From: Escherichia phage vB-Eco-KMB43
Sequence record: OR525698.1
Length of the DNA: 64,000 bases
Strand: one strand, 5' to 3'
Shown: piece after piece, positions 38,272 to 45,226 of the stretch
How the letters are laid out: the number at the start of each line of letters is the position of its first letter
Position numbering within the stretch: position 1 is the first letter of the stretch
Made by a program: the position numbers and the translations under genes
Notes under the pieces: model-generated
Told to the model about the DNA's origin: nothing
What the model saw: only the letters and a program-made list of their open reading frames with translations
Database searches by the model: none

Positions 38272-38305
38272 GTATTATAGCGGGGATTTCTCCCCGCGTC
38301 AACAG
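38272..38305 (-). promoter_or_regulatory. early promoter cassette, copy flanking the methyltransferase gene (downstream side)
   Basis: ATTATAGCGGGGATTTCTCCCCGCGTCAACAG, identical over 32 nt to the copy at 39169-39202. Confidence 0.65.
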
Positions 38306-39150
38306 CTATTTGACAATCCATCGCAAGCATCAATGTAAGCACCTACAAAACTTTCTATAAAAAGTGCTCCGACTTGAGGAACTATCGCATTGCCATAACC
38401 GCGCAATCGTCCCATTGTTGAGGATACCCCATCAGCCAACAAGGGAATCGTGGGTTCAACAATTCGTTTTTTCCCGTCTCTGCATAGATACTCTGTTCCA
38501 CTGTCCCAAAACCGTAATACATCTTCACTTGTTCTGATAAATTTCCCGGCGCTAGTGATTTCCTCCCCGTTGCAAGTCTCGCTTCCATTCTCCGTTGCAT
38601 TGCTTCCGGCGATCTTGCTGATATATTCGTTACAGTAGGTGTTTGCCAACTCGTTAATAGCCCCGAAGAAAAGTCTGTCCCGCTTGTGCGGCGCACCGAC
38701 GATATCACATGATAATACCGCAGCCCCGACACTGTAACCTTCTCTTTCCAATTCCTCGTGAAGATCATCCAACCACCCCGTTTCGATAGCTTTTGCAACC
38801 TGTTCCCCAAAGAGCATTGGAGGTTTGCACGCTGACACGAGTTTAAGAAATGTCGGTGCAAGGTGTCTTTCGTCGAACTTTCCTTTTTGCTTTCCGGCTC
38901 TTGAAAATGGTTGACATGGTGGCGATCCGGTCCATAGCCTTGTTGTTTCTGGTACTCCAGCGAGTTGCAATGCTCTTGACCACCCCCCAATCCCCGCGAA
39001 GAAGTGACATTGTGTAAATCCTTCCAGATCTCTAGGGGTGACTTCTGTAATTGATCTTTCATCGACATACCCATAAGGAATTAATTTGTTTGCTATAAGT
39101 TCACGTAACCAGTTAGCCGCGCCTTTATCCCACTCATTGTAATAATTCAT
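38299..39150 (-). CDS. DNA (cytosine-5)-methyltransferase
   Basis: 283 aa; FFAGIGGWS (motif I), GSPPCQPFS (motif IV, catalytic Pro-Cys), GEQV (ENV-like), KRDRLFF (motif VIII), GNAIVPQV (motif X) in canonical order. Confidence 0.8.
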   Translation of the reverse strand: MNYYNEWDKGAANWLRELIANKLIPYGYVDERSITEVTPRDLEGFTQCHFFAGIGGWSRALQLAGVPETTRLWTGSPPCQPFSRAGKQKGKFDERHLAPTFLKLVSACKPPMLFGEQVAKAIETGWLDDLHEELEREGYSVGAAVLSCDIVGAPHKRDRLFFGAINELANTYCNEYISKIAGSNATENGSETCNGEEITSAGKFIRTSEDVLRFWDSGTEYLCRDGKKRIVEPTIPLLADGVSSTMGRLRGYGNAIVPQVGALFIESFVGAYIDACDGLSNSC

Positions 39151-41521: not shown

Positions 41522-42754
41522 TTATACTGCCATTTGAGCGGTGATCGCTGGATGGCTTTGATAGTTGTGAATTTTAAAATCTTTCGGAGTCTTTGTCAAT
41601 ACCTCATCTAAAGATTTAAATTCCGGCAACTCAATTGTTGGTTTATCAAACGGAACACGGCTTAACTGTTCCATAACTTGATCAAAATGGTTTTTGTAAA
41701 TGTGAGTATCTCCACCAGAGAAAATCAGTTCTCCTACCTCAAGATCACACATTTTCGCTATGATGTGAGTTAACAGCGCATAGCTGGCGACGTTAAAGGG
41801 CAAGCCCAAAAAGCTGTCTACGCTTCGCTGAAACCACATACAAGACAGTTTACCTTCATTGACGTAGAATTGTACGAACGGATGACATACACCCAATACA
41901 GCATTATGTGTTCCTTGTACGTTCCATGAGTCAATGATGATACGTCGATCCGTTGGATTGTTTTTAATTTGTTCAATCACGTTTTGTAACTGGTCTTCCC
42001 AAATCTTCGGGCGATAGACATATTCTTCATCGTCTTTAGTGCTTGATGTGTCTACGTCCATACTAACAAACATCGTGGTATCCGGTGCTATAATATCCCC
42101 ACCCAGATAATCACTATCAAGCAGATAACCGAAATAACCATCATCTACCCATTCCTGGAATCCCCACAAGCAATATGCATCATTAACAAAATTAGATTGA
42201 GTCTTCCAGTGGTCTGCTACTAAGAATTGATTATATTCAGAATCAAACTCTTCATAACGCATACCACGCCAGATAGCACATAAACGGTCTTCTGTGTCAT
42301 TAGTTGGCGTAAAGTCTTCTACCCACGGGTGCTTAAATGTATGTGTATATTTGCTCTTAACGCGCTTAATTTTGATTTCACCATGTGGATGAATCGGTTT
42401 GCGTCGCCACGCCATACCATACATATTTCCGACATTATAACCATTGAATCGCAATGGATTCTTTTCTTTCATATCAAGACAGTTGCCGCGCCAAATATCA
42501 AAGGCTTCCTCGTCAAACTTGCCGCGTGTAATTTCCTGTAAGCGACGGCGGTCAAGTGATCCCTCCATAAACCATAGCAATTCGCCAATTACAGAGGCTG
42601 TAGCCATCTTTTTAGTGGTCAGTAATGGGAAACCCTTGCTTAAATCAATTCGCATCTCTGCGCCGAATTTAGAGAGCGTACCTACCCCCGTGCGGTCTTC
42701 ACGAGGACAGCCATTATCAAGAACATCACGCAATAGTTTCAAATATTCTTTCAT
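41522..42754 (-). CDS. td: thymidylate synthase with a large internal insertion
   Basis: 410 aa; N-terminal DRTGVGT and FPLLTTKK, catalytic CHPFVQFYV, DSFLGLPFNVASYALL and TS-like C-terminus ...AQMAV; extra segment between the YGMAWR and DRRIIIDSWN blocks; continuous ORF. Confidence 0.8.
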   Translation of the reverse strand: MKEYLKLLRDVLDNGCPREDRTGVGTLSKFGAEMRIDLSKGFPLLTTKKMATASVIGELLWFMEGSLDRRRLQEITRGKFDEEAFDIWRGNCLDMKEKNPLRFNGYNVGNMYGMAWRRKPIHPHGEIKIKRVKSKYTHTFKHPWVEDFTPTNDTEDRLCAIWRGMRYEEFDSEYNQFLVADHWKTQSNFVNDAYCLWGFQEWVDDGYFGYLLDSDYLGGDIIAPDTTMFVSMDVDTSSTKDDEEYVYRPKIWEDQLQNVIEQIKNNPTDRRIIIDSWNVQGTHNAVLGVCHPFVQFYVNEGKLSCMWFQRSVDSFLGLPFNVASYALLTHIIAKMCDLEVGELIFSGGDTHIYKNHFDQVMEQLSRVPFDKPTIELPEFKSLDEVLTKTPKDFKIHNYQSHPAITAQMAV

Positions 42755-43022
42755 CCCACATCACCTTTTTCTTATTGATTGCTTTCTTACGCAGTTTTGC
42801 TACTGTCTCGTCAATGTCTATAAAGATAACACCACGGTCGAATATAGTAGCAGGTCTTGATATATCGCTATTTTCTTGCACAGGAAGCCATGATGCGCTC
42901 GCTTCATCATAGAGATATTGTAAACCGTAATAATCTACGGCTACTGCGTAGTTTTCACTGGTAGCTGACCATAATTGAATAATACCGACTTTCATTATTG
43001 TTCCCGTCCACAATGTAAACAC
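42726..43022 (-). CDS. hypothetical protein (98 aa or shorter)
   Basis: ORF between frd and td; true start may be an internal Met. Confidence 0.45.
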   Translation of the reverse strand: MFTLWTGTIMKVGIIQLWSATSENYAVAVDYYGLQYLYDEASASWLPVQENSDISRPATIFDRGVIFIDIDETVAKLRKKAINKKKVMWDERIFETIA

Positions 43023-43670: not shown

Positions 43671-43685
43671 AATATAAATCTCCTA

Positions 43686-44015
43686 TCAAACCAGCTTGAG
43701 ATAGTTTTCGTTAACGTTTTCTTCTGTGATCTCGGTTTTAAACTCATTACCAACATCAGGAGAAACATAATAGCGTTCGGAATAATCACGCCACATTTTC
43801 AGTAGGCTGACACCAACATTAACACCATTTTCCCAGAAACGGAAGATAATTTTATTTGCGGTGTAGCGGTAATCGCTTTGAATCAAGCTGCCATCACCGC
43901 GACGTGATTCATAAACCGTAATACATTCACGGTTAGCGGCTTTAAGACATTCTTCAATAGTGCCGCATGAGATAATTTCGGTTGAGTCGTTTACGATTTG
44001 TTCTACAGTCCACAT
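43686..44015 (-). CDS. hypothetical protein (109 aa)
   Basis: Intact ORF downstream of a promoter cassette. Confidence 0.5.
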   Translation of the reverse strand: MWTVEQIVNDSTEIISCGTIEECLKAANRECITVYESRRGDGSLIQSDYRYTANKIIFRFWENGVNVGVSLLKMWRDYSERYYVSPDVGNEFKTEITEENVNENYLKLV

Positions 44016-44037
44016 AATATAATCCTCTCTTTGTTTC

Positions 44038-44070
44038 GATGTGTGTATTATACATTACCACATCAGCATG
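44038..44070 (-). promoter_or_regulatory. early promoter cassette
   Basis: Reverse complement TTGACA-N16/17-TATAAT with conserved leader. Confidence 0.55.
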
Positions 44071-44103
44071 TCAACACCTTTTTCATAAAATTTTAGGCAA
44101 TAA

Positions 44104-44124
44104 AAAGCCTCCCCGAAGGAAGGC
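44104..44124 (-). terminator. candidate terminator downstream of gene 32
   Basis: GCCTCC-CCGAAG-GAAGGC hairpin flanked by A-runs on the plus strand. Confidence 0.55.
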
Positions 44125-44136
44125 TTTAAAAATTCA

Positions 44137-45160
44137 TTACAGATTCAGAAGTGAGTCCAGGTCATCCAGATCAGAAGCGGAGGAAGTACCGCCACCCAGA
44201 TCCAGCGATGCCATCAGGTCATCAGCGGAAGAATCTAACGCCGTGCTAGCTGCGTTAATACCAACTACAGTGCTAGCTGCGGTAATACCAGAATCGAATG
44301 CATTCATCTGTGCGTCAAAATCGTCAAGCTGGCTGTTAATCGCTGCCGCAGCACTGGAAGCCGCAGCGCCAGCTACCATAGAAACGCCCATAGTTTTCTT
44401 AAATTTGGTTTCCAGTTCATCGAACGGTTTAAACTGGCTAGGCGCTACAATCTCACCCAGATCAACCATGTTTTCCATCAGATATTTCTGATATGCTTCG
44501 TCTTCAATTTTCGGAAGCTGTGATTGCTGCATGAAACGAGAATCATCATAGTTCTGGTGTTTATCAACCTTCTTAGCTTTCAGGAGGAAGTTAGCACCGG
44601 AGAACACACAAGTTACATCTACCGGAACTTCGCCCATGTCGGTATTCACGTTCACCATTGCAACGATCTTATCATAAATTTTCTGACCGAAGCGGAATTT
44701 GAATACCTTACCTTCATTTTCTGGTGCTTGAGGATCTTTCAGTACCAGAATATTTGCGTAGTAAGACGCTTTACGCTTAATCAGTTGCCATTCGGTTTTA
44801 TCGGTATTGTACAGGTCTTTTTCGTTAATATATTTGCACACAGGGCAAGAATCAAAATCACCGTGGGTGCTGGAGCAGTTTTCCCAATACCATTTGCCAT
44901 TAACTTTGAAGGAATGGTTTACCAGTTTCACAATCGGCAGACCGTCTTCTGTCTTAGACGGCAGGAAGCGAATCAGGGCTTCACCGTTACCTGCTGCATC
45001 AGTCTTAATCTTCCACTCTTTCGGATCTTCTTTGGAGAAACCGTTGCCACCTTTCAGTGTTAATCTTCCACTCTTTCGGATCTTCTTTGGAGAAACCGTT
45101 GCCACCTTTCAGTGAGGCCAGTTGAGCTTGCAGTTTGGAAGAATCTTGGCGTTTAAACAT
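44137..45160 (-). CDS. 32: gp32 single-stranded DNA-binding protein; reading frame broken near the 5' end by a 55-bp tandem duplication
   Basis: From ATG 45158-45160: [33 protein letters not shown] (T4: [33 protein letters not shown]), then frameshift and stop at 45005-45007; main frame (44137-45105) carries the rest of gp32 including zinc-site residues [10 protein letters not shown]. Confidence 0.85.
45005..45114. repeat. perfect 55-bp tandem duplication (2 copies) inside the gene 32 N-terminal coding region
   Basis: 45005-45059 and 45060-45114 identical: TTAATCTTCCACTCTTTCGGATCTTCTTTGGAGAAACCGTTGCCACCTTTCAGTG. Confidence 0.95.
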
Positions 45161-45193
45161 ATTCACTATTCCTTCTTTTGATTAATTTACTAG

Positions 45194-45226
45194 ACTATTA
45201 TACAGATTTAAATTTACTTGTCAACT
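45194..45226 (-). promoter_or_regulatory. sigma70-like promoter upstream of gene 32
   Basis: Reverse complement TTGACA-N16/17-TATAAT about 35 nt upstream of the gene 32 ATG; overlaps the 3' end of gene 59. Confidence 0.55.

What the first reader, a model, noticed from the sequence alone, without database searches (positions are those of the whole stretch)
42030..42430. Thymidylate synthase with a ~120-aa insertion and no td intron
The td ORF is 410 aa, against 264 in E. coli ThyA and 286 in T4 Td. Conserved blocks (DRTGVGT, catalytic Cys in CHPFVQFYV, uracil-discriminating Asn in LPFNVASYALL, C-terminal …AQMAV) are intact, but about 120 extra residues lie between the YGMAWR and DRRIIIDSWN blocks. 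The gene is continuous at DNA level, unlike T4 td with its group I intron. The insert has no intein hallmarks and may be an added domain.
Basis: partly seen in the sequence, partly recalled or inferred. Interest (0 to 1): 0.45.

Follow-up and report, generated by a model that had tools for sequence, protein, structure and literature searches.

The report
Endonuclease relic inside phage thymidylate synthase
The thymidylate synthase of this RB49-like coliphage carries, in one surface loop, a folded 136-residue remnant of a homing-endonuclease-like gene cassette that entered the gene in frame, without an intron or intein, and is intact and apparently mobile in other phages.

Summary
It is a full ThyA-type thymidylate synthase with every catalytic residue. 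One contiguous 136-aa block (aa 118-253, nt 41996..42403) sits in the hairpin matching E. coli TS 100-108. No intron and no intein features were found.

The insert is a decayed in-frame copy of a phage cassette. Its core ("M2") is homologous to a large family of small stand-alone phage proteins (M2 plus AP2/NUMOD DNA-binding tails) that PHROGs labels HNH endonucleases. About 40 other phage TS clusters carry an insert at this site. The long ones (about 245-285 aa) keep the full cassette and every family-invariant residue (D-K-D...N).

Syntenic phages with and without the insert, and one mosaic TS gene, point to transfer by gene conversion.

The window's copy has lost both flanking modules and the signature residues (D-S-D) and is very acidic. 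It is still predicted to fold confidently, is present in all 58 Krischvirus records, and is under purifying selection (dN/dS 0.1-0.3). It is probably a domesticated, non-nucleolytic domain. Its present role is unknown, and I found no description of it in the searched literature.

The parts
41522..42754 (-). td gene, 410 aa, one continuous ORF
   Evidence: It is 97-99% identical at the nucleotide level to RB49-like Krischvirus td.
42404..42754 (-). N-terminal TS segment, aa 1-117 (ends ...NMYGMAWR)
   Evidence: Aligns to E. coli TS 1-99 and Pfam PF00303.
41996..42403 (-). In-frame insert, aa 118-253 (136 aa)
   Evidence: Unmatched by TS profiles. It matches inserts at the same position in other phage TS proteins.
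42365..42403 (-). Basic N-terminal stalk strand, aa 118-130 (RKPIHPHGEIKIK)
   Evidence: AF2 strand E118-130. The first 26 insert residues, which include this strand, carry net charge +7.
42041..42331 (-). M2 remnant, aa 142-238: three helices plus a beta-hairpin; the degenerate HNH-like core
   Evidence: M2 profile 116.7 bits, E 1.6e-35 (the profile includes this sequence). A profile built only from stand-alone proteins gives E 2e-8 over aa 167-273, which is the C-terminal part of M2 and runs on past it. AF2 elements H153-169, H181-193, H199-204, E210-213, E228-231.
42230..42241 (-). Four codons (SEYN, aa 172-175) that are present or absent among Krischvirus td alleles (410 vs 406 aa)
   Evidence: This is also the lowest-pLDDT block of the insert.
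42143..42172 (-). CLWGFQEWVD, aa 195-204: motif conserved in TS-embedded copies (short and long) but not in stand-alone M2 proteins
   Evidence: Alignments.
42110..42118 (-). D-S-D, aa 213-215: degenerate counterpart of the family-invariant D-K-D
41993..42022 (-). C-terminal stalk strand, aa 245-254 (YVYRPKIWED), returning to the TS core
   Evidence: AF2 strand E245-254.
41522..41995 (-). C-terminal TS segment, aa 254-410 plus stop; contains catalytic Cys290 (nt 41885-41887), R310, D313, N321, H351, Y353

Best explanation
This Td is a working ThyA-type thymidylate synthase. Its surface hairpin (E. coli 100-108) was invaded in frame by a phage homing-endonuclease-type cassette.

In its complete form, seen in about 20 other phage TS clusters, the cassette has three parts:
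- M1: a beta-rich DNA-binding-type repeat.
- M2: an HNH-like core with an invariant D-K-D...N signature.
- M3: a tail that aligns with the start of the AP2/NUMOD-like tail of stand-alone relatives.

The cassette is translated as part of TS and is not spliced out at RNA or protein level. It moves between td alleles by recombination or gene conversion.

In the T4-like lineage that includes this window the cassette has decayed to a two-stranded beta stalk carrying only the M2 fold. M1 and M3 are deleted and the signature residues are gone (D-S-D, no Asn), so it can no longer be a nuclease of that family. The remnant is fixed, folds as a compact, very acidic domain, and is kept by purifying selection as an integral part of the enzyme.

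Shown:
- TS identity and intact catalytic residues.
- Single-block insertion.
- Homology of the insert to the cassette and to stand-alone proteins.
- Loss of signature residues.
- Fixation and purifying selection.
- Presence/absence and mosaic patterns in relatives.

Inferred:
- No splicing.
- No nuclease activity in this copy.
- Nuclease-driven homing of the intact copies.
- The present role of the remnant: either a structural passenger or an exapted interaction surface.
For: TS identity.

Same-site inserts in other TS proteins:
- Klebsiella phage phiKp_21 (517 aa), Vibrio phage D181 (477 aa), P0001-P0025 and P0121-P0131.
- An exhaustive phmmer search of 1.84 billion cluster representatives with the insert gave 13 hits. 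Eleven are TS proteins, one is a stand-alone 139-aa protein, and one is a low-complexity protein with no aligned stretch.

Homology to the endonuclease-type family:
- Long inserts hit PHROG 2081, 953 and 374 ('HNH endonuclease') at E 1.7e-33, 1.5e-25 and 1.8e-20.
- The M2 profile finds 603 clusters of 130-205-aa proteins, some with AP2 (PF00847) or NUMOD (PF07453, PF22083) domains.
- A profile built only from 74 stand-alone members hits the window's Td at E 2e-8 in a set of 33 sequences, and long inserts at 1e-19 to 1e-34.

Decay series: 20 of the 24 long or intermediate inserts tabulated keep the whole D-K-D...N signature, and all 24 keep at least W44, W72 and F78. The window, P0002-5, P0009/13, P0020 and P0123-125 have lost much of the signature.

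Selection:
- dN/dS is 0.10-0.3 for the insert against 0.02-0.09 for the core.
- At dS of about 0.7 it is 0.13 against 0.085.
- The indel in the insert is a whole number of codons.

Fixation: 58 of 58 Krischvirus records carry the insert. Short forms also occur in other T4-like contigs with gp32-frd-td-nrdA synteny.

Mobility in relatives:
- P0024/P0025 (283-286-aa inserts) have TS cores at distance 0.08/0.16 from the insert-less P0051.
- They lie in syntenic phage contigs, with a clean homology break at the loop.
- P0021 is a mosaic. Its insert and about 60 upstream TS residues match a P0131-like donor. About 50 downstream residues diverge from P0011 but cannot be compared with the truncated P0131. 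The distal ends are 80-97% identical to P0011.

No intron, intein or hidden ORF.
Against: - No experiment shows that M2 proteins are nucleases.
- Pfam and NCBIfam have no model for M2, and no Pfam HNH model matches it.
- The usual HNH histidine is a lysine even in intact members.
- hhalign against a canonical HNH_3-AP2 protein aligns only from the conserved Asn into the AP2 part.
- The deep TS phylogeny is unresolved. The large insert-bearing clade appears in 8 of 30 bootstrap replicates, so the number of independent insertions is unknown. The with/without pattern could also reflect loss.
- Constraint on the remnant is nearly as strong as on the TS core in the deepest comparison. That fits a selected function better than a mere passenger.
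Confidence: 0.7

Rival explanations
1. Exapted accessory domain. The remnant has a new selected job in Td, for example an acidic protein-interaction or DNA-mimic surface that docks Td to basic partners in the phage dNTP-synthesis or replication machinery. It shares the origin proposed in the best explanation but differs on the present role.
For: - Purifying selection is almost as strong as on the TS core at high divergence: omega 0.13 against 0.085.
- The insert is 50-55% identical across T4-like lineages whose TS cores are 65-67% identical.
- The TS-specific motif LWGFQEWVD is conserved in embedded copies only.
- The M2 remnant has net charge -16 (pI 4.1). That is outside the range of 74 stand-alone M2 domains (-7 to +8) and of the long inserts (-1 to +8).
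- pTM 0.92 suggests a fixed orientation on the enzyme.
Against: No partner, interface or phenotype is known. The acidity is much weaker in the sister T4-like lineages (-3 to -7). Constraint could come only from the need to fold without harming TS.
Confidence: 0.3
2. The insert in this window is still an active, mobile homing endonuclease.
For: It is homologous to a family annotated as HNH endonucleases.
Against: - The DNA-binding-type modules M1 and M3 are absent.
- The invariant R50, K100, Y110-S111, C115 and N123 are lost.
- It is fixed in 58 of 58 Krischvirus records with no presence/absence polymorphism.
- Its composition matches the rest of the gene.
- It is strongly acidic.
Confidence: 0.03
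3. The block is an intein, or an in-frame intron, and is removed before the mature enzyme forms.
For: td and thyX genes of phages are known hosts of group I introns and inteins (PMC2988022, PMC5050341).
Against: - No Rfam hit in the window.
- No Hint/intein domain.
- The junctions read WR|RKP...IWE|DQL, with no Cys/Ser/Thr nucleophile and no His-Asn.
- The in-frame amino-acid sequence is under purifying selection.
- The block is predicted to form one rigid body with TS.
Confidence: 0.02
4. The block is a lineage-specific elaboration of a variable TS loop, unrelated to endonuclease genes, like the extra small-domain residues of L. casei TS.
For: This hairpin varies in length among insert-less TS proteins, from 10 to 35 residues.
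Against: There is significant sequence homology to stand-alone non-TS proteins and to PHROG endonuclease families through the long forms.
Confidence: 0.03

Closest known systems
T4 td group I intron with I-TevI (and I-BmoI in the Bacillus mojavensis thyA intron)
   Same: The same host gene is colonised by a homing-endonuclease-bearing element. The host enzyme stays functional. td is a recurrent target in phages (PMC2988022; I-BmoI from my own knowledge).
   Different: Those elements are introns removed from the mRNA, encode GIY-YIG enzymes and sit at a different site. Here there is no intron, the cassette is read in frame as part of TS, and its core is HNH-like.
Inteins with endonuclease domains (e.g. 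mycobacteriophage ThyX inteins, PMC5050341)
   Same: An in-frame insertion of an endonuclease-type module inside a nucleotide-metabolism enzyme, with patchy distribution.
   Different: There is no Hint splicing domain and there are no junction nucleophiles. The insert sits in a variable surface hairpin rather than a conserved active-site motif, and it stays in the mature protein (inferred).
ShiLan domain: non-splicing insertion in a mycobacteriophage DNA methylase that hides an HNH endonuclease (PMC11855218)
   Same: A homing-type insertion in a phage gene that is neither intron nor intein, keeps the host frame open, and is predicted to fold away from the host enzyme.
   Different: In ShiLan the HNH is encoded out of frame. 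Here the endonuclease-like homology is in the TS frame and no alternative-frame ORF exists. The window's copy is a decayed, fixed relic.
Stand-alone phage M2-AP2/NUMOD proteins (PHROG 2081, 953, 374; e.g. Escherichia phage alia gp039, Vibrio phage K375_0094, Bacillus phage BC-VP 'HNH endonuclease')
   Same: They share the M2 domain. M1 repeats are also shared with K375_0094.
   Different: They are free-standing genes with DNA-binding tails and an intact D-K-D...N signature. The window's copy is embedded in TS and lacks both the tails and the signature.
Canonical HNH_3-AP2 homing endonucleases of T4-like phages (e.g. L014:1742-2338, RB49 ORF040c; PMC1524935, PMC2993671)
   Same: Same overall layout: a nuclease-type core followed by an AP2 domain. 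The conserved Asn and the AP2 part align. By eye, D-H...N...N aligns with D-K...N...N.
   Different: No Pfam HNH model matches M2. The general-base His is replaced by Lys. The N-terminal helices (LYxxWxxMxxRCY...VCxxWxxFxxF) have no counterpart in HNH_3.
Known length variation of TS (L. casei small-domain insert; eukaryotic insert 1; bifunctional DHFR-TS)
   Same: TS tolerates extra residues on its surface. From my memory of human TS, eukaryotic insert 1 lies at the same hairpin. This was not tested here.
   Different: Those are short loops (12-50 aa) or terminal fusions with no homology to mobile-element proteins.

Membership tests
ThyA-type thymidylate synthase (PF00303 / TIGR03284) | Profile score above the curated cut-off over the whole fold | tested here: met
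   PF00303: 284 bits against 24.3. TIGR03284: 284.5 against 108.35. The match is in two pieces that flank the insert.
ThyA-type thymidylate synthase (PF00303 / TIGR03284) | Catalytic Cys and the dUMP/folate-binding residues (E. coli R21, Y94, R126', R127', C146, R166, D169, N177, H207, Y209) | tested here: met
   R21, Y112, R270, R271, C290, R310, D313, N321, H351 and Y353 are all present.
ThyA-type thymidylate synthase (PF00303 / TIGR03284) | dTMP synthesis activity | not testable with these tools
   Needs an enzyme assay or thyA complementation.
Intein | Hint splicing domain; Cys/Ser/Thr at the N-junction; His-Asn followed by Cys/Ser/Thr at the C-junction | tested here: not met
   No Pfam hit on the insert. 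The junctions read R|RKPIH and KIWE|DQL.
Group I/II intron | Structured intron RNA interrupting the ORF | tested here: not met
   No Rfam family reaches its gathering score anywhere in the window. The ORF is continuous and selected at the amino-acid level.
Canonical HNH (beta-beta-alpha-metal) endonuclease | Match to an HNH sequence model | tested here: not met
   No Pfam HNH family matches the insert, the long inserts or the stand-alone relatives.
Canonical HNH (beta-beta-alpha-metal) endonuclease | Asp-His general base and Asn/His metal ligands | tested here: not met
   The intact family has D-K-D...N. The window has D-S-D, and Asp at the Asn position.
Canonical HNH (beta-beta-alpha-metal) endonuclease | Beta-beta-alpha fold | tested here: inconclusive
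M2 ('D-K-D') domain family of phage M2-AP2/NUMOD proteins (PHROG 2081/953/374) | Significant profile match | tested here: met
   A profile of 74 stand-alone members hits the window's Td at E 2e-8 among 33 sequences. PHROG models hit the window's insert directly only at E 0.07-0.19, but hit long TS inserts at down to 1.7e-33.
M2 ('D-K-D') domain family of phage M2-AP2/NUMOD proteins (PHROG 2081/953/374) | Family-invariant residues W44, R50, W72, F78, D99-K100-D101, N123 (P0130 numbering) | tested here: not met
   The window keeps W72, F78, D99 and D101. By the global alignment it also keeps W44. It lacks R50, C51, Y52, K100, Y110, S111, C115 and N123. It is therefore a degenerate descendant, not a functional member.
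Homing (mobile) endonuclease element | Presence/absence at one site among closely related genomes | tested here: not met
   For the window's lineage the insert is present in 58 of 58 Krischvirus records. The feature is met for the long forms: L016 and L020 carry it, L018 and L019 lack it.
Homing (mobile) endonuclease element | Co-conversion of flanking host sequence | tested here: inconclusive
   P0021 is a clear mosaic around the insert. Ordinary homologous recombination would give the same pattern. Nothing comparable was seen for the window.
Homing (mobile) endonuclease element | Site-specific cleavage of the empty allele | not testable with these tools
   Needs biochemistry or co-infection crosses.

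The most novel reading that the evidence does not exclude
The intact cassettes in other phage TS genes may be active homing endonucleases that live permanently inside a permissive loop of their host enzyme. They would be translated as part of it and spread by cutting empty td alleles. That would be a third, splicing-independent way for homing endonuclease genes to occupy essential genes, alongside introns and inteins. The RB49-type relic would be the end point of that cycle, exapted as an acidic interaction domain of Td.
Probability: 0.25. Interest if true: 0.8.

Novelty: new variant of a known kind. Interest (0 to 1): 0.6.

Why it matters
Homing endonuclease genes are thought to survive inside conserved genes only by hiding in self-splicing introns or inteins, or by sitting between genes. 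This td locus and its relatives suggest another route: direct in-frame residence in a tolerant surface loop of the host enzyme.

The relatives show a visible decay series:
- full cassettes with an intact signature;
- intermediate copies with an eroded signature;
- a domesticated 136-aa domain that has been kept under selection in a whole genus of coliphages since before that genus diverged.

This gives a concrete, testable example of how selfish elements can become new protein domains. It also defines an uncurated domain family (M2) that has no Pfam, NCBIfam or PDB representative. On a practical level, one phage record (Vibrio phage D181) labels such a TS 'HNH endonuclease' and others (phiKp_21, Cognac, Whisky, Brandy) 'hypothetical protein'.

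Tried and rejected
- The word-indexed protein search with the insert alone returned nothing. The full-length query and the exhaustive representative search were used instead.
- Pfam and NCBIfam give no family for the insert, the long inserts or the stand-alone relatives.
- A PDB profile search with the stand-alone family finds only plant AP2 domains for the tail.
It was repeated without them.
- IMG/VR holds only two close loci.
- No second M2 copy exists in the window.
- No hidden out-of-frame ORF, as in ShiLan, exists in the window's insert or in two long inserts.
- The GC profile shows no foreign island at the insert.
- The bootstrapped NJ tree did not resolve whether most insert-bearing TS proteins form one clade (8 of 30 replicates). 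I therefore make no claim about the number of insertion events.
- Vibrio phage VH7D, which looked like a 92%-coverage hit, has an ordinary 299-aa TS.
- Literature searches found no description of the RB49 Td insert.
Full report
**What is there**

The window is from an RB49-like T4-type coliphage (genus Krischvirus). The td region is 97-99% identical to RB49 and about 57 other records. Gene order is RNase H, CYTH-domain protein, gp59, gp32, frd, td, nrdA, a C5 methylase, nrdB.

td is ORF 41522..42754 on the minus strand: 410 aa and uninterrupted. TS profiles match it in two pieces, aa 1-~116 and aa 254-410. PF00303 scores 284 bits and TIGR03284 scores 284.5, both far above their cut-offs. The best solved relatives are E. 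coli TS (264 aa), L. casei TS (316 aa) and T4 Td (286 aa).

A multiple alignment places all the unmatched residues in one block, aa 118-253 (nt 41996..42403). The block lies inside the hairpin that reads WRAWPTPDGR|HIDQ in E. coli (residues 98-111). Every residue I know to be needed for TS catalysis is conserved. Rfam finds no RNA family in the window, and there are no tRNA genes.

**The insert is a real, translated, folded domain**

AlphaFold2 with a 40-sequence alignment gives mean pLDDT 93.9 and pTM 0.92 for the whole protein. The insert alone gives pLDDT 93.0.

The predicted layout is:
- A long two-stranded ribbon, aa 118-130 paired with aa 245-254.
- On it, a compact unit of three helices (153-169, 181-193, 199-204) and a beta-hairpin (210-213, 228-231).

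Selection was measured among ten td alleles:
- dN/dS is 0.10-0.3 for the insert (a few low-divergence pairs range from 0.08 to 0.65), against 0.02-0.09 for the TS core.
- In the deepest comparison (dS about 0.7) the values are 0.13 and 0.085.
- The only length difference is a whole four-codon indel (SEYN, nt 42230-42241), giving 410 or 406 aa.

All 58 phage records whose Td is at least 90% identical carry the insert. No phage record falls between 60% and 90% identity. In the same phage collection the T4-like relatives listed among the weaker hits (T4 itself, RB16, KP15-like and others) cover only about 67% of the query. That is, they lack the insert.

**Where the insert comes from**

Searching phage genomes with the insert alone found the Krischvirus copies. 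It also found segments of proteins in Klebsiella jumbo phage phiKp_21 (E 6e-12) and Vibrio phage D181 (E 4e-6; annotated "HNH endonuclease"). Both proteins turned out to be thymidylate synthases, of 517 and 477 aa, with a longer insert at exactly the same position.

The large protein collections hold about 40 clusters of such TS proteins, 401-613 aa long. An exhaustive phmmer search of 1.84 billion cluster representatives with the insert gave only 13 hits. Eleven are TS proteins, one is a stand-alone 139-aa protein (P0130), and one is a low-complexity protein with no aligned stretch.

The long inserts (about 245-285 aa) have three parts:
- M1: "G.Y.V.GK...vvIkF..TGsy...iKD...PSveGvGYlG".
- M2: "rkLY.iW.dM..R.YnP....Y..v.VC.RW.NF.NFy.D...LWGFQEfVDSgY..LDKDYyGsniYSPdTCiF....N".
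- M3: "LNGGG.GFKiY.y....fYS...Lq..RG".

The window's insert keeps only M2 on the ribbon.

Long inserts match three PHROG families labelled HNH endonuclease: phrog_2081 at E 1.7e-33 (profile positions 14-216 of 433), phrog_953 at 1.5e-25 and phrog_374 at 1.8e-20. The window's own insert reaches them only at E 0.07-0.19.

A profile of M2 finds 603 clusters of small stand-alone proteins (130-205 aa). Some carry AP2 (PF00847) or NUMOD-type (PF07453, PF22083) domains, and a few are named "HNH endonuclease" or "AP2 domain-containing protein" by their sources. A profile built only from 74 of these stand-alone proteins detects the window's Td at E 2e-8 in a set of 33 sequences. It detects the long TS inserts at 1e-19 to 1e-34. 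The homology is therefore direct and not only transitive.

**Is M2 a nuclease domain?**

This is not settled.

Points in favour:
- The PHROG labels.
- The layout (core followed by an AP2 domain) is that of HNH-AP2 homing endonucleases of T4-like phages (PMC1524935, PMC2993671).
- Stand-alone members sit in places typical of homing genes. For example, alia gp039 lies directly after a gene annotated as DNA polymerase part I.
- The stand-alone family has invariant D99-K100-D101 and a nearly invariant N123 on a beta-hairpin.
- By eye, the string LDKD...GNK.YSPDTC.FV...N lines up with VDH...DNRIENLR...N of a canonical HNH_3-AP2 protein.
- hhalign aligns the conserved Asn and the AP2 part at 83.8% probability.

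Points against:
- No Pfam or NCBIfam model covers M2.
- No solved structure matches it by sequence.
- The catalytic histidine of HNH enzymes is a lysine here.

I therefore call M2 "HNH-like" and treat nuclease activity of the intact members as an inference.

**A decay series**

Aligned to the stand-alone profile, 20 of the 24 long or intermediate TS inserts tabulated keep the whole signature (Y41 W44 M47 R50 ... D-K-D ... Y-S ... C ... N). The other four carry one or two substitutions or lack the final Asn. A second group (P0020, P0123, P0124, P0125) has eroded signatures.

The short forms have lost R50-Y52, K100, Y110-S111, C115 and N123. These are the window, P0002-P0005, P0009 and P0013. 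The window reads D-S-D and has Asp in place of the Asn.

Short forms arose at least twice:
- Once in the T4-like group. That group comprises the window, P0002 and P0003-P0006. P0005 and P0006 lie in gp32-frd-td-nrdA synteny.
- Once inside the phiKp_21-like group, where the short P0009 and P0013 cluster with long forms in 26 of 30 bootstrap replicates.

The window's M2 remnant is also unusually acidic, with net charge -16 over 95 residues and pI 4.1. Stand-alone M2 domains range from -7 to +8 and long inserts from -1 to +8. The ribbon's first strand is basic. Together with the lost modules and residues, this makes DNA cleavage or DNA binding by the window's copy unlikely.

**Evidence that the intact cassette moves**

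(i) P0024 and P0025 carry 283-286-aa inserts, yet their TS cores are at distance 0.08 and 0.16 from the insert-less P0051. They sit among dozens of insert-less TS proteins.
- The contigs are syntenic phage genomes (DUF2201 gene ... DHFR, TS).
- Nucleotide homology (77-81%) runs up to the hairpin, breaks, and resumes.
- About 850 nt in L016 stand in place of 92 nt in L018.

(ii) P0021 is a mosaic.
- Its first 57 and last ~100 TS residues are 80-97% identical to P0011.
- The insert and about 60 upstream TS residues match a P0131-like donor: 71% against 42% to P0011.
- About 50 downstream residues are also only 50-60% identical to P0011. They cannot be compared with P0131, which is truncated there.

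This is the pattern expected from co-conversion, although ordinary recombination could also produce it.

(iii) P0022 and P0017 have insert-less nearest neighbours.

The deep TS tree is not resolved. The 31-member insert-bearing clade is recovered in only 8 of 30 bootstrap replicates. I therefore do not estimate how many insertions occurred, and loss remains an alternative to gain in any single case.

**What it is not**

- Not an intein. There is no Hint domain and there are no junction nucleophiles.
- Not an intron (selection at the protein level).
- Not a ShiLan-type element with an out-of-frame endonuclease (PMC11855218), because no alternative-frame ORF of note lies in the insert here or in two long forms.
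- Not spread-out loop growth.
- Not recently acquired foreign DNA, judging by GC content.

**How it most likely works**

Td acts as an ordinary TS dimer. The insert projects from a hairpin that is naturally variable, from 10 to 35 residues in insert-less relatives. From my memory of human TS, which was not tested here, this is also where "eukaryotic insert 1" lies.

The cassette entered there in frame. It was tolerated because a beta ribbon carries it away from the core. It then lost its DNA-binding-type modules and signature residues.

What remains is kept by selection. That is either because a misfolding insert would damage an enzyme the phage needs, or because the acidic domain has acquired a role of its own. 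Constraint nearly equal to that on the core at high divergence leans slightly towards the second option, but nothing identifies a partner.

**Novelty**

RB49 td has been in GenBank since 2003 as plain "thymidylate synthase". The surveys of T4-like genomes and their homing endonuclease genes that I could read list no td-embedded relic (PMC1524935, PMC2993671, PMC2988022). My full-text searches found no description of TS proteins with this insert. The closest published idea is the ShiLan insertion (PMC11855218). I rate the finding a new variant of a known kind: a homing-endonuclease-type element, in a new in-frame and non-spliced arrangement, seen here in decayed and domesticated form.

Noticed in passing
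window 38299..39150 (-): A 283-aa C5 cytosine DNA methylase (PF00145, E 4e-19) lies between nrdA and nrdB in a GC-richer stretch (0.45-0.49 against about 0.40 nearby). A matching 279-aa gene is present in the related contig L014 but absent from L015, so it is a variable cargo gene in this phage group.
   Followed up: partly
window 42726..43022 (-): A small ORF (98 aa from GTG; annotated as 89 aa, RB49ORF236c, in RB49) overlaps the td start by 29 nt. It is annotated in four of the six fetched Krischvirus td loci (shorter in a fifth, unannotated in PHB13). It has no Pfam family.
   Followed up: partly
L014:1742-2338 compared with window 45106..45220: A canonical HNH_3-AP2 homing endonuclease gene (198 aa) sits between gp59 and gp32 in the related contig L014. 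It is absent from L015 and from the window, where gp59 and gp32 are about 115 nt apart. This is a classic presence/absence homing-gene polymorphism.
   Followed up: partly
L014:3476-4693 and L015:2716-3738 compared with window 43671..44136: The related contigs carry a 340-405-aa CapR-domain gene between gp32 and frd. The window has only the 109-aa ORF 43686..44015 there.
   Followed up: no
L022:4689-7876: In a T4-like metagenomic contig that also has a short-insert td, nrdA is split into 476-aa and 324-aa ORFs by a 237-aa ORF with a faint I-HmuI NUMOD-like match. It looks like a homing gene splitting nrdA.
   Followed up: no
L004:1872-2468 (Escherichia phage alia gp039): A stand-alone M2-AP2 protein lies immediately downstream of a gene annotated as DNA polymerase I 'part I', which suggests a homing-type gene next to or inside a split polymerase gene.
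   Followed up: no
L002:2144-3577 (Vibrio phage D181); L001:1955-3508 (Klebsiella phage phiKp_21): Insert-bearing thymidylate synthases are mis-annotated in public records as 'HNH endonuclease' and 'hypothetical protein'. D181-type TS proteins also diverge at normally conserved TS positions (for example RSG instead of DRTG near the N-terminus), so their TS activity may be worth checking.
   Followed up: partly
window 42230..42241 (-): A four-codon indel (SEYN) inside the insert splits Krischvirus td alleles into 410-aa and 406-aa forms. It falls in the least confident loop of the AF2 model.
   Followed up: yes
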